Below the pieces are notes generated by a model that was not told where the DNA came from, did not search any database, and was given only the letters and a program-made list of their open reading frames with translations. This document shows, piece by piece, positions 20,071 through 24,194 of a DNA stretch of 26,228 nucleotides. The position numbers were made by a program, and so were the translations under genes. Origin of the DNA: Thermoproteota archaeon (GTDB lineage Archaea; Korarchaeota; Korarchaeia; Korarchaeales; Korarchaeaceae); contig JAVCBY010000055.1 in the NCBI GenBank assembly GCA_037917625.1, forward strand, positions 1 to 26,228, written 5' to 3'. Positions within the stretch are counted from its first letter, which is position 1. Each line of letters begins with the position of its first letter.

Positions 20071-22433
<2,363 letters not shown>

Positions 22434-22538
22434 ATCTCCTCAGACTCTTGATTATTTCTTCGAACCTCTTCCTATCCTCCTCCGTAGCCCTAAGGTACTG
22501 CTCTAATGCCCTCCCTATATCGTCCTCATTTCATCCTT

Positions 22539-22736
22539 ATGTAACCTCCTGAGACCGTGTGAGCTACCCACCCCTGAAGGGTATGGGCTTCCAGCGTTTA
22601 GAGTGGGCTTTGCGCCTACCTCCTCATCTGCTGGTTCGAGGGGCTCACATCTCCTCCATCCCATAGAGCTCGTTACCCTATGGGCTATTCTCATTTATCC
22701 ACCTCAGCCGATGCTTCATAGGTCATTGGAACATCC
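22539..22736 (-). ncRNA. Putative TnpB omega-RNA (reRNA): scaffold inside the element plus a ~16-20 nt guide from the flank
   Basis: Stems CCCATAGGG/CTCTATGGG, CCAGC/GCTGG enclosing a GGC-GCAAA-GCC hairpin, and the right-end hairpin. GTGAGC (22643-22648) is complementary to the terminal GCTCAC (pseudoknot). It lies downstream of an internal BRE/TATA; the 5' end is inferred. Confidence 0.6.
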
Positions 22737-22818
22737 TCAAACTACTTGGGCTCTCTAATTTTTTAAATTTTCGCATTCATCTCACTCGAATGGTGTGGGT
22801 TTTCTGGCGAAAACTTTG
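22559..22818 (-). mobile_element. Non-autonomous IS200/IS605-family miniature element (PATE/MITE-like), 260 bp, no tnpA or tnpB
   Basis: Minus strand left end: TTAT|CAAAGTTTTCGCCAGAAAA followed by a hairpin. Right end: GAAG-CCCATACCCTTCAGGGGTGGG-TAGCTCAC|. The guide/cleavage pairs AAAA-TTAT and GAAG-TCAC follow the IS608 rule. There is no target duplication, and excision restores the flanking frame. Confidence 0.85.
22760..22773 (-). promoter_or_regulatory. BRE/TATA promoter inside the element's left end
   Basis: The minus strand reads CGAAAA-TTTAAAAA, the canonical archaeal BRE+TATA, pointing toward the right end. Confidence 0.6.
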
Positions 22819-22981
22819 ATAATTATTTGAATGGGAGATCCACTTACTAGTATCTAATCCCCTGTTGAAATCATCGAAGAAGTAGAAAGTAGCATCACCG
22901 TCGCTCTCACTTGCAGCAGTAGGATTCCCGTAATACGTGTATAGTCGAGCCCGAAGGAGCTATTGAAAGAGAGCATCAAAC

Positions 22982-23431
22982 TCACGGCGACCTCTTCCCA
23001 CTCACCTCCTCTATCTCAATCCTTATGACCTCCACTTTATCTAACTCCTCATCTGGGACATCAAAATCCTCATCAGAGTACCTCTTGATTATGCAATTCA
23101 ATGCTTTTCTCTTCTCCTCTCTATCCTCAACGAAACTAGCTCTACCAACGCCTATCACACTCTTGTAAGCTAGAGTCCACTCGCAAGGGCTTCCAGACCT
23201 TATGAGGCTAATATCGACCTCAGTCTCAAAGCAAACGAGGTTGTTCCTCCTCAGTATATCTATCTTCCTCCCCTCCCTCGCGGAATGTATGTAGATGAAC
23301 CCATCGGAGTAGCAGAAGATGACGGGAACGCAGTAAGGCATTCCTCCATCGCACATAGCTATCCTGCAGATCTTAGCCCTCCTCAGGACTTCCTCTATTC
23401 CATCCTTCATCTCCTTATCGATACGCCTCAT
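22982..23431 (-). CDS. Pyridoxamine 5'-phosphate oxidase / NimA-like flavin-nucleotide-binding protein
   Basis: MRRIDKE, CRIAM...PYCVP...IYIHSAREGRKID...VCFE...YKSVIG.G...GK. The start at ATG 23431 is supported by TATA TTTATATG at 23453-23460 (leaderless). Confidence 0.88.
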   Translation of the reverse strand: MRRIDKEMKDGIEEVLRRAKICRIAMCDGGMPYCVPVIFCYSDGFIYIHSAREGRKIDILRRNNLVCFETEVDISLIRSGSPCEWTLAYKSVIGVGRASFVEDREEKRKALNCIIKRYSDEDFDVPDEELDKVEVIRIEIEEVSGKRSP

Positions 23432-23511
23432 GACGTTGAGGCGGTGAGAGCTCATATAAAGTTTATCTGGAGCGAGATTTCTCCTAAAAGATCGCGATTT
23501 TAACATGATAA

Positions 23512-23934
23512 CTATATTTTGAAGTCCCGATAACTCACTATATCGATCCCATACTTCCTCTTCAGCTCCTCCCTCACGGATAAAATCGAGGAATCCTCCG
23601 TAATCAGGACCTCCTTCCTCTCTATAGCTGTAGCAACTATTATGCGATTTATGTAGTCTCTCAAGCCGCGCAACTCATATGCTCTCCTCACTATACTCTC
23701 CTCATAAAATGGTACCACATCGAAAGACCTCATTATTATATCGGTAGCCTCCGTTACGTATCCCGGGGGTATATTCAAGCTGAATGCTTTCGCTTGCATT
23801 TCAAATATTGATATGAGGCTCACCTTTAGATCTGAAAGATCTACATTCACCTTCCCATCTGCTACCGCTCTTAAAAAATCTGTTTTCACGCCTATCCGCG
23901 CGAGAGGGAGGAGGTAAATAGTATCTAAGATCAT
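23512..23934 (-). CDS. vapC: PIN-domain (VapC) toxin
   Basis: MILDT, SLISIFE, IIVATA, LITED; ATGA overlap with the upstream antitoxin. Confidence 0.85.
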   Translation of the reverse strand: MILDTIYLLPLARIGVKTDFLRAVADGKVNVDLSDLKVSLISIFEMQAKAFSLNIPPGYVTEATDIIMRSFDVVPFYEESIVRRAYELRGLRDYINRIIVATAIERKEVLITEDSSILSVREELKRKYGIDIVSYRDFKI

Positions 23935-24167
23935 CTCCCCTCGAACCTCTTGCTGAGTTCAGCACGGAACTCCTCGAATTCCTCTTGGGAAATTTCTGCG
24001 ATTTTCTCGGAGTAGATAAGCCTTATCAAGTCATTCCTAAATCTCTCCTTGAGCAATTCTCCTATAACCTTTGATATCGCCCTAGCGGTCCCATACCTCC
24101 TAATGCTCTCCTGCACTAACTTCTCATACACATCGTCCTCTAAGATCACAGTTGTACGCTTAGGCAT
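23931..24167 (-). CDS. vapB: VapB-type antitoxin (ribbon-helix-helix/CopG-like)
   Basis: MPKRTTVILEDDVYEKL...ISKVIGELL with an acidic C-terminal tail. It lies upstream of the PIN gene; TATA TTTTATAT at 24187-24194 supports ATG 24167. Confidence 0.82.
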   Translation of the reverse strand: MPKRTTVILEDDVYEKLVQESIRRYGTARAISKVIGELLKERFRNDLIRLIYSEKIAEISQEEFEEFRAELSKRFEGR

Positions 24168-24194
24168 ATAATATATATGCCTATGCATATAAAA
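24161..24194 (-). promoter_or_regulatory. vapBC promoter with palindromic operator
   Basis: TAGGCATATA-ATA-TATATGCCTA (perfect 10-bp arms, 24161-24183) lies between the TATA box and the start codon, overlapping the ATG. Confidence 0.7.

What the first reader, a model, noticed from the sequence alone, without database searches (positions are those of the whole stretch)
22539..22822. Protein-free IS200/IS605 mini-element that appears to be a self-contained omega-RNA (guide RNA) expression cassette
Seen: a 260-bp ORF-less insert on the minus strand. It runs from a left end through BRE/TATA (CGAAAA-TTTAAAAA) and ~175 nt of nested stems to a right-end hairpin ending in TCAC. The stems are CCCATAGGG/CTCTATGGG, CCAGC/GCTGG around a GGC-GCAAA-GCC hairpin, and GTGAGC complementary to the terminal GCTCAC. 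Established: TnpB omega-RNAs derive from the IS200/IS605 right end, close with a pseudoknot to the terminal bases, and take their guide from the adjacent flank. Inference: tnpA and tnpB were deleted while promoter and scaffold were kept, so the element could move using TnpA in trans and supply guides to a TnpB encoded elsewhere. That would make it a mobile stand-alone guide-RNA gene in a deep-branching archaeon.
Basis: partly seen in the sequence, partly recalled or inferred. Interest (0 to 1): 0.85.

Follow-up and report, generated by a model that had tools for sequence, protein, structure and literature searches.

The report
Guide-RNA mini-transposon without its nuclease gene
This is a 260-base gene-less remnant of a TnpB-type insertion sequence that keeps only the transposon ends, a promoter and the guide-RNA scaffold; it is a clear archaeal example of an element type that has already been described.

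Summary
Window 22559-22818 (minus strand) is a 260-bp insertion. A genome of the same genus (G016) has the empty site, and one metagenome contig skips exactly these 260 bases. It sits 3' of TTAT, makes no target duplication, has no terminal inverted repeats and ends in TCAC. The 84%-complete genome holds 9 copies in two subfamilies.

The left ~95 bases align with the left end of full-length tnpB elements in relatives, including the BRE/TATA box and the tnpB start codon. The right 132 bases match the 3' end of tnpB plus the right end.

It is therefore a PATE-type deletion derivative of a tnpB-only IS200/IS605 element that keeps a promoter plus omega-RNA scaffold. Its use by TnpB in trans is inferred. 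I found no tnpB or tnpA in this assembly and no RNA data.

PATEs carrying omega-RNAs that need TnpB in trans are already in print (Meers et al. 2023; archaeal PATEs, Dyall-Smith et al. 2011). This is a new member of a known kind, of moderate interest.

The parts
22819..22822 (-). TTAT target tetranucleotide immediately 5' of the left end. It is the expected TnpA target and the expected TnpB TAM.
   Evidence: Empty/filled comparison. In the alignment, 7 of the 8 copies that have a left end show TTAT here; C35 has ATAT.
22559..22818 (-). The whole 260-bp non-autonomous IS200/IS605 derivative (PATE).
   Evidence: Absent from G016. A skip of exactly 260 bases in one X2 contig. 9 copies in G000.
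22800..22818 (-). 19-nt spacer between the left cleavage site and the left-end hairpin.
   Evidence: Sequence; conserved in all 8 copies that have a left end.
22781..22799 (-). Left-end subterminal hairpin. In this copy it is weakened by G-to-A changes: GTGAG here against GTGGG in other copies.
   Evidence: In C27 the left-end and right-end hairpins have the same shape: 5 bp, a 1-nt bulge, 3 bp and a TTCA loop.
22759..22774 (-). BRE/TATA-like box (GCGAAAA-TTTAAAAAA). This is the former tnpB promoter in the left end. The predicted transcription start is near 22737.
   Evidence: Aligned with the same box in the left ends of the full-length G030 elements and of mini-elements in G030, G033 and G041. 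The start site is inferred from the usual archaeal TATA-to-start spacing (recalled).
22724..22726 (-). Relic tnpB start codon. It is followed by only 11 codons (MTYEASAEVDK, then a stop).
   Evidence: Aligned with the GTG start of G030 tnpB; translation.
22559..22690 (-). 132-nt omega-RNA-like scaffold. It has six helices, including the closing helix GTGAGC (22648-22643) with GCTCAC (22564-22559) and the right-end hairpin (22587-22567).
   Evidence: Covariance model R1. Covariation. It overlies the 3' end of tnpB in full-length relatives.
22515..22694 (-). 59-aa frame that is the relic C-terminal tail of TnpB (about residues 368-415 of the 419 in the G030 protein). It lies after the last RuvC motif and is not a gene.
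   Evidence: tblastn; no Pfam family; the frame is broken in other copies.
22539..22558 (-). Flank directly 3' of the right end: the predicted guide (about 16-20 nt). It matches the G016-type empty site directly after TTAT.
   Evidence: There is no other place in G000 with 2 or fewer mismatches next to TTAT. The guide role is inferred from the TnpB paradigm.

Best explanation
Window 22559-22818 (minus strand) is a palindrome-associated transposable element (PATE). It is a non-autonomous internal-deletion derivative of a tnpB-only (IS1341-type) IS200/IS605 insertion sequence.

Shown: the deletion removed nearly all of tnpB and fused two modules. The first is the left end: a 19-nt spacer, the subterminal hairpin, a BRE/TATA promoter and the tnpB start codon. 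The second is the last ~130 bases: the omega-RNA scaffold plus the right-end hairpin, ending in TCAC. The element inserted 3' of TTAT without a target duplication and has spread to at least 9 places in this genome.

Inferred mechanism:
- The left-end promoter transcribes a ~200-nt RNA starting near 22737.
- Its 3' part folds into the omega scaffold and runs into the flank, which supplies a 16-20-nt guide.
- A Y1 TnpA supplied in trans excises and inserts the element as single-stranded DNA.
- A cognate TnpB supplied in trans, loaded with this RNA, would cut the vacated site (TTAT + guide match). Recombination then restores the element.

On this reading the element parasitises both proteins. In this assembly neither protein was found, so the copy may be idle at present.
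For: Mobility and ends:
- Empty site in G016 and a 260-base skip in one metagenome contig.
- 9 copies with common sharp ends and unrelated flanks.
- TTAT lies 5' of 7 of the 8 left ends.
- No inverted terminal repeats and no duplication.
- The left-end and right-end hairpins have the same shape.

Descent from tnpB elements:
- The right 132 nt lies over the 3' end of 409-419-aa ORFs in G030. These ORFs hit Pfam Cas12f1-like_TNB (E 6.7e-19 and 5.6e-21) and solved TnpB/Cas12f chains.
- The left end aligns with the G030 left end through the TATA box to the start codon: 69 of 94 positions.
- The relic tail of TnpB is seen in all 9 copies.

RNA structure:
- 12 of 36 pairs are compensatory among the 8 own copies.
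- On 31 distinct sequences, 96.0% of cells pair against 78.5% in shuffles, and 25 of 36 pairs change on both sides. 0 of 500 shuffles reach this; slid controls give 32-44%.
- The scaffold travels with the cognate TnpB in Bathyarchaeia, Methanomethylicota and Nitrososphaera MAGs.

Same architecture elsewhere:
- Six mini-elements in G030, G033 and G041 have a left end directly upstream of the scaffold, with different junctions. A TATA-like box is seen in five of them; L031 lacks it.

Concept in print: Meers et al. 2023 (passages read).
Against: - No tnpB of any clade and no Y1 tnpA was found in G000. Pfam searches and tblastn found only the 9 relic tails. The genome is 84% complete in 116 contigs, and repeats often fail to assemble, so this does not show absence.
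- There is no expression evidence: no RNA run is listed.
- The window copy's left-end hairpin carries mismatches, so this copy may no longer be mobile.
- No oligo-T terminator follows the guide.
- Part of the covariation arose in full-length lineages. There the region is also coding, and helix 6 is also the TnpA-recognised DNA hairpin.
- No Rfam family matches.
Confidence: 0.78

Rival explanations
1. Inert fossil. The element is a PATE of the same origin, but it is no longer transcribed into a working guide or mobilised. Promoter and scaffold persist only because the copies are young.
For: No tnpB or tnpA in the assembly. The left-end hairpin is degraded in the window copy and in C24 and C41. 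The C69 copy has lost its left end. Subfamily A copies are only 3-6% diverged, so there has been little time for decay.
Against: The same promoter-plus-scaffold architecture recurs with different deletion junctions in mini-elements of G030, G033 and G041. Within subfamily B, whose three copies share one junction, helix 1 differs by three two-sided compensatory changes. Within subfamily A, both variable paired positions keep pairing. The assembly is incomplete.
Confidence: 0.15
2. The conserved pairing serves single-stranded DNA transposition (TnpA recognition), not an RNA.
For: IS200/IS605 transposes as top-strand ssDNA, and TnpA reads subterminal hairpins. Helix 6 is that hairpin. G-T wobbles are also possible in ssDNA of the same strand.
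Against: By what is known of the family (recalled), TnpA needs only the subterminal hairpins and cleavage sites. Helices 1-5 reach 130 nt inward, covary, and have the layout of a TnpB omega-RNA: stem 1, then a helix that pairs the bases just before the guide with a distant 5' segment (ISDra2 structure, passages read).
Confidence: 0.04
3. An exapted small RNA. The transcript acts independently of TnpB, for example as a regulatory or antisense RNA against the converging NAD(P)H-hydrate repair gene.
For: Transcripts overlapping the 3' end of IS1341-type tnpB genes were reported as functional ncRNAs in a haloarchaeon (Gomes-Filho et al. 2015; only the search listing and the start of the abstract were seen). 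The window copy points toward the 3' end of the 517-aa gene.
Against: The flanks of the 9 copies are unrelated and lie next to different genes. No guide has a second near-match in the genome. Conservation follows the TnpB-associated scaffold, not any host context.
Confidence: 0.03

Closest known systems
PATEs (palindrome-associated transposable elements) of haloarchaea, defined in Haloquadratum walsbyi (Dyall-Smith et al. 2011, PMC3119063; passages read)
   Same: They lack a transposase, terminal inverted repeats and target duplication, and have near-terminal palindromes. They are described as IS605-type transposons that lost their core by deletion, leaving the fused termini.
   Different: That paper predates the discovery of omega-RNA and says nothing about a retained promoter or guide scaffold. 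The host here is a relative of Ca. Methanodesulfokora (Korarchaeia) from hot-spring material, not a haloarchaeon.
PATE-like gene-less IS elements of Geobacillus stearothermophilus (Meers et al. 2023, bioRxiv 10.1101/2023.03.14.532601; passages read)
   Same: They are minimal elements with IS200/IS605 left and right ends and no gene. [quoted passage not shown]
   Different: Those are bacterial, and cognate tnpA and tnpB lie in the same genome. Here no partner was found in the assembly. Their Extended Data figure on PATEs could not be seen.
ISDra2 TnpB omega-RNA (Nakagawa et al. 2023, PMC10097598; passages read)
   Same: A scaffold of about 116-132 nt spans the right end and overlaps the tnpB 3' end. 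The bases just 5' of the guide pair with a distant upstream segment next to stem 1. The guide comes from the flank.
   Different: There is no detectable sequence similarity and no Rfam hit. The TAM here is predicted to be TTAT. The three-dimensional pseudoknot or triplex is not testable here.
Classical MITEs (terminal inverted repeats plus target-site duplication)
   Same: Short, non-coding, multi-copy, and mobilised in trans.
   Different: This element has no inverted terminal repeats and no target duplication, so it is not a MITE in the strict sense.

Membership tests
IS200/IS605 family, non-autonomous (PATE) | Insertion without target-site duplication | tested here: met
   Empty versus filled site, G016 against the window.
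IS200/IS605 family, non-autonomous (PATE) | No terminal inverted repeats; asymmetric ends | tested here: met
   The ends are CAAAG... and ...GCTCAC.
IS200/IS605 family, non-autonomous (PATE) | Insertion 3' of a conserved tetra- or pentanucleotide at the left end | tested here: met
   TTAT at 7 of 8 left ends and ATAT at one. TTAT is retained at the empty site.
IS200/IS605 family, non-autonomous (PATE) | Similar subterminal imperfect hairpins at both ends | tested here: met
   The C27 left-end and right-end hairpins have the same shape. Family consensus: CCCAC-N-CC(C) stem with a TTC(A) loop. The window copy's left-end hairpin is weakened.
IS200/IS605 family, non-autonomous (PATE) | Ends shared with a protein-coding IS200/IS605 element | tested here: met
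   The left and right ends align with the G030 tnpB elements.
IS200/IS605 family, non-autonomous (PATE) | Mobilised by a Y1 HUH transposase (TnpA) | not testable with these tools
   PF01797 was not found in G000, G030 or G033. The tnpA-tnpB element of G017 has a different right end.
TnpB omega-RNA (reRNA) | Scaffold encoded at the right end, overlapping the 3' end of tnpB, on the sense strand | tested here: met
   Model R1 hits lie over the tnpB 3' end in L015, L023, L022, L057, L058 and L059.
TnpB omega-RNA (reRNA) | Conserved secondary structure supported by covariation | tested here: met
   25 of 36 pairs change on both sides and 96% of cells pair, against controls.
TnpB omega-RNA (reRNA) | Bases just 5' of the guide pair with a distant 5' segment (pseudoknot-forming helix) | tested here: met
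   Helix 2, GUGAGC with GCUCAC: 3 of 6 pairs change on both sides and 96.1% of cells pair. The tertiary fold was not tested.
TnpB omega-RNA (reRNA) | Transcribed; guide taken from the flank; bound by TnpB; directs TAM-dependent cleavage | not testable with these tools
   No RNA run is listed. No cognate TnpB was found in G000.
TnpB omega-RNA (reRNA) | Match to a curated RNA family | tested here: not met
   No Rfam 15 hit at gathering score. At E up to 10 there are only chance-level hits to unrelated families.
MITE (strict sense) | Terminal inverted repeats and target-site duplication | tested here: not met

The most novel reading that the evidence does not exclude
Promoter-plus-omega-RNA mini-elements are not mere debris. 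They are a selected 'guide-only' lifestyle: hyperparasites that keep an expressed guide so that any compatible TnpB, whether resident, plasmid-borne or newly arrived, performs homing for them. Two observations point this way. Their modules recombine: subfamily A has a left end 90% identical to subfamily B but a scaffold closer to a full-length element of another genus. And they can outlive their nuclease in a genome, leaving a standing set of orphan guides, as the 9 copies here would be if tnpB is truly absent.
Probability: 0.25. Interest if true: 0.6.

Novelty: new member of a known kind. Interest (0 to 1): 0.35.

Why it matters
It is a clean, base-resolved archaeal example of a guide-RNA-only IS200/IS605 derivative: exact ends, an empty site, the predicted TAM, a parent element and a covariation-backed scaffold. 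It gives a defined TnpB/omega-RNA/TAM triple from Korarchaeia-related thermophiles that could be tested biochemically. It also raises a tractable question: does selection keep mini-elements able to express a guide when they no longer encode the nuclease? It does not change current understanding, because the concept is already stated in the literature.

Tried and rejected
- Rfam at gathering score and at E up to 10 on 22350-23050: only chance-level hits (OmrA-B, idnO, RNA-OUT and others, all far below their gathering scores).
- Single-sequence RNA fold of 22539-22822: z = -0.93, not informative.
- Own-genome searches for tnpB (PF07282, PF01385) and tnpA (PF01797): only weak zinc-ribbon hits below cut-off. 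tblastn with the two G030 TnpB proteins: only the 9 relic tails.
- RNA evidence: no RNA holder is listed among public runs. The two DNA runs laid are contigs and cannot show transcripts.
- Autonomous partner: the tnpA-tnpB element of same-genus G017 was inspected. Model R1 gives only 8.7 bits (E 0.29) there, and the ends differ. It was rejected as the parent, although its right-end hairpin loop is similar.
- Viral carriers of the cognate TnpB: none among IMG/VR contigs with this query.
- Trans-targets of the guides: no site with 2 or fewer mismatches is preceded by TTAT. A first run at 4 mismatches was too loose and its output was cut, so it was not used.
- The bacterial promoter/terminator scanner was not used, because it does not model archaeal promoters.
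- Paper PMC12558985 (circular omega-RNAs in archaea) contains none of the six terms searched: MITE, PATE, lacking, orphan, without tnpB, in trans.

Full report
**1. What is in the sequence**

The interval lies in a 548-bp gap between two converging genes. One is a 517-aa NAD(P)H-hydrate repair fusion (YjeF_N + Carb_kinase, 20880-22433, plus strand). The other is a 174-aa pyridoxamine-phosphate-oxidase-like protein (22982-23506, minus strand).

**2. It is a mobile insertion with exactly defined ends**

- BLAST of the gap against the organism's own assembly (G000: 1.22 Mb, 116 contigs, 84% complete) finds 9 places.
- The window copy and C24, C25, C41 and C35 are full-length. The other four are 94-97% identical to the window copy.
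- C69 is a 5'-truncated copy at 95% identity.
- Three diverged copies (C27, C107, C14) are 70-74% identical. I call these subfamily B and the first six subfamily A.
- Aligned with 70-nt flanks, the copies share sharp ends and have unrelated flanks.
- Same-genus genome G016 has the same two flanking genes at 90-91% identity but lacks the element. The pairwise alignment shows ...AATTAT|ACGGTCTC... in G016 and ...AATTAT[insert]ACGGTCTC... in the window.
It has no target duplication and no inverted terminal repeats.
- One contig in hot-spring metagenome run X2 joins 22558 to 22819, skipping the same 260 bases. That contig is about 89% like the window and the shorter side is 26 nt, so it is probably a relative. 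It supports the boundary but not within-strain polymorphism.
- TTAT precedes the left end in 7 of the 8 copies that have a left end; C35 has ATAT.
- All copies end in TCAC.

**3. It descends from a tnpB-only IS200/IS605 element**

- In 60 relatives, BLAST matches occur in 8 genomes and cover only the right half of the element, about positions 129-265.
- In G030 these matches lie over the 3' ends of 419-aa and 409-aa ORFs. The ORFs hit Pfam Cas12f1-like_TNB (E 6.7e-19 and 5.6e-21) and solved Cas12f/TnpB chains, including ISDra2 TnpB (E 1.4e-6).
- The window's 59-aa frame (22515-22694) is the relic of TnpB residues ~368-415, downstream of the last RuvC motif.
- The element's left ~95 bases align with the left end of the G030 element. 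The alignment runs from TTAT through the hairpin and the A/T-rich box to the tnpB start codon: 69 of 94 positions against G030a and 56 of 90 against G030b.
- The deletion therefore fused the start-codon region to the last ~45 codons.
- No conserved ORF survives. Subfamily A encodes 11-13 residues from the old start. In subfamily B the frames are 56, 33 and 3 residues.
- The full-length parents found carry tnpB only. I saw no evidence that this lineage ever carried tnpA.

**4. The RNA structure is real**

- RNAalifold on the 8 distinct own copies gives six helices, and 12 of 36 pairs are compensatory. Examples: GUGAGC/GCUCAC becomes GUGACAC/GUGUCAC, and CCAGC/GCUGG becomes CUCCC/GGGAG.
- A covariance model built on them (R1) finds 32 matches in own and relatives' loci.
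- On the 31 distinct rows, 96.0% of cells pair against 78.5% in shuffles, and 25 of 36 pairs change on both sides. 0 of 500 shuffles reach any of the five measures. Sliding the 3' partner gives 32-44% pairing.
- This alignment was fitted to the model, which favours the structure. The independent MAFFT/RNAalifold result points the same way.
- The layout is: stem 1, then a helix pairing the six bases just before the guide with a segment ~85 nt upstream, enclosing three nested stems and the right-end hairpin. This parallels the ISDra2 omega-RNA, where bases -5 to -3 pair with -103 to -105 and stack on stem 1 (Nakagawa et al. 2023, passages read).
- Helix 6 is also the DNA hairpin expected to be read by TnpA. 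Its covariation does not discriminate between RNA and DNA roles.
- No Rfam family matches.

**5. The promoter**

- GCGAAAA-TTTAAAAAA (22774-22759) lies at the same aligned position as TTTAAAAAT or TTTAAATA boxes in both full-length G030 left ends and in 5 of the 6 left-end-bearing mini-elements of G030, G033 and G041. L031 lacks it.
- With the usual archaeal spacing (recalled), transcription would start near 22737. That gives a ~200-nt RNA ending in the flank.
- This is inference. No RNA run is available.

**6. The same architecture recurs elsewhere**

- I examined 24 scaffold hits in relatives' loci:
  - 3 follow an uninterrupted full-length tnpB (L015, L023, L022).
  - 1 follows a tnpB split in two pieces (L018).
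  - 3 follow only the last ~90-110 codons.
  - 12 follow only 50 or fewer tail codons. Two of these sit at contig ends with no upstream sequence, and one has only 536 nt upstream.
  - 5 show no TnpB similarity.
- A left-end profile finds a left end directly upstream of the scaffold in six of them: L025, L035, L037, L033, L024 and L031 (E 5.5e-6 to 0.027). Their junction sequences differ.
- Genome-wide, R1 hits number 9 in G000, 10 in G030, 15 in G041, 7 in G033, and 1-3 in six other genomes. That is 10 of 61 genomes.
- Intact cognate TnpB (76% identity or more) was found only in G030 (2 copies) and G037 (1 copy). G014 has a copy interrupted by a stop.
- A short midpoint-rooted tree of the 132-nt region, without support values, intersperses mini-elements and full-length elements. 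I treat this only as a hint of repeated origin.

**7. Partners**

- G000 has no tnpB of any clade and no Y1 tnpA.
- G030 and G033 also lack PF01797. G017, G014 (a fragment) and G041 have it.
- The G017 tnpA-tnpB element has a different right end.
- Incompleteness and poor assembly of repeats mean that none of this shows absence.
- The cognate TnpB with the same scaffold occurs at 69-82% identity in MAGs titled Bathyarchaeia, Methanomethylicota and Nitrososphaera. A record titled Ca. Methanodesulfokora washburnensis holds the locus identical to G030's. This indicates horizontal spread among TACK archaea.
- None was found in viral contigs with this query.

**8. Guides**

- The 16 nt after each right end are unique in the genome. 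The exception is C35 and C69, which share their flank.
- No site with 2 or fewer mismatches is preceded by TTAT.
- The G016 empty site is TTAT followed by a perfect match to the window's predicted guide. This is the target expected under the homing model of Meers et al. 2023.

**9. Comparison with the literature**

- PATEs were defined in Haloquadratum. They were described as IS605-type transposons reduced by deletion to fused termini (Dyall-Smith et al. 2011, passages read).
- Meers et al. 2023 found PATE-like gene-less elements in Geobacillus. They state that PATEs often encode omega-RNAs that must be used in trans by TnpB from other elements (passages read).
- Literature searches found no paper on such elements in Korarchaeia or on promoter retention. 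Supplements were closed, and Altae-Tran et al. 2021 was not seen (recalled only).
- I therefore rate this as a new member of a known kind.

**10. Verdict**

- Function (expression, trans use by TnpB, mobilisation by TnpA) is inferred.
- Present-day activity in this genome is doubtful, because no partner was found and the window copy's left-end hairpin is weakened.
- Interest is moderate.

Noticed in passing
G000 C35:152-411 (L005) and C69:115-298 (L006): These two copies have identical 132-nt scaffolds and share the first 38 nt of right flank, hence the same predicted guide. After that the flanks diverge. The C69 copy lacks the first ~80 nt (left end and promoter). An unrelated open frame with no Pfam hit, running from the contig start, reads into it and stops inside it. 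This may reflect a duplication or recombination involving the right end plus flank.
   Followed up: partly
G000 subfamilies A and B against the G030 full-length element: The elements are mosaic. The window's left end is 90% identical (84 of 93) to subfamily B but only 73% (69 of 94) to G030a. Its scaffold is 86% identical to G030a but only 67-74% to subfamily B. Left-end and right-end modules appear to have been exchanged between elements.
   Followed up: partly
G000 C14:389-626 and C27:14519-14755: In subfamily B the old tnpB start codon is fused in frame to the TnpB C-terminal tail, giving frames of 56 and 33 aa. The third copy (C107) is broken after 3 codons. This is probably a by-product of the deletion.
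   Followed up: partly
G000 C25:6303-6869(-) and C69:295-870(-): Converging ORFs overlap the element's last 4 bases, so the reverse complement of the terminal TCAC supplies their TGA stop codon. The insertions may have altered these genes' C-termini.
   Followed up: no
window 22574-22675 in metagenome runs X1 and X2: Summed contig depth over the scaffold core is about 570-1300, against about 10-24 on the flanks. Many contigs break there. This scaffold family is highly repeated across the hot-spring communities sampled.
   Followed up: no
window 23512-24188 (minus strand): A 140-aa PIN-domain ORF (Pfam E 2.2e-5) is preceded by an 85-aa ORF that overlaps it by 4 bases and has no Pfam hit. The layout is that of a VapBC-type toxin-antitoxin pair.
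   Followed up: partly
L057, L058, L059 (records): The same TnpB clade (69-82% identity) with the same right-end scaffold occurs in MAGs titled Bathyarchaeia, Methanomethylicota and Nitrososphaera. This points to horizontal transfer across archaeal classes.
   Followed up: partly
L017 (G041:C221) 540-671 and 1091-1209: Two scaffold hits lie on the same strand about 420 nt apart on one short contig. One follows a C-terminal tnpB fragment that has its own left end. These may be nested or tandem degenerate elements.
   Followed up: no
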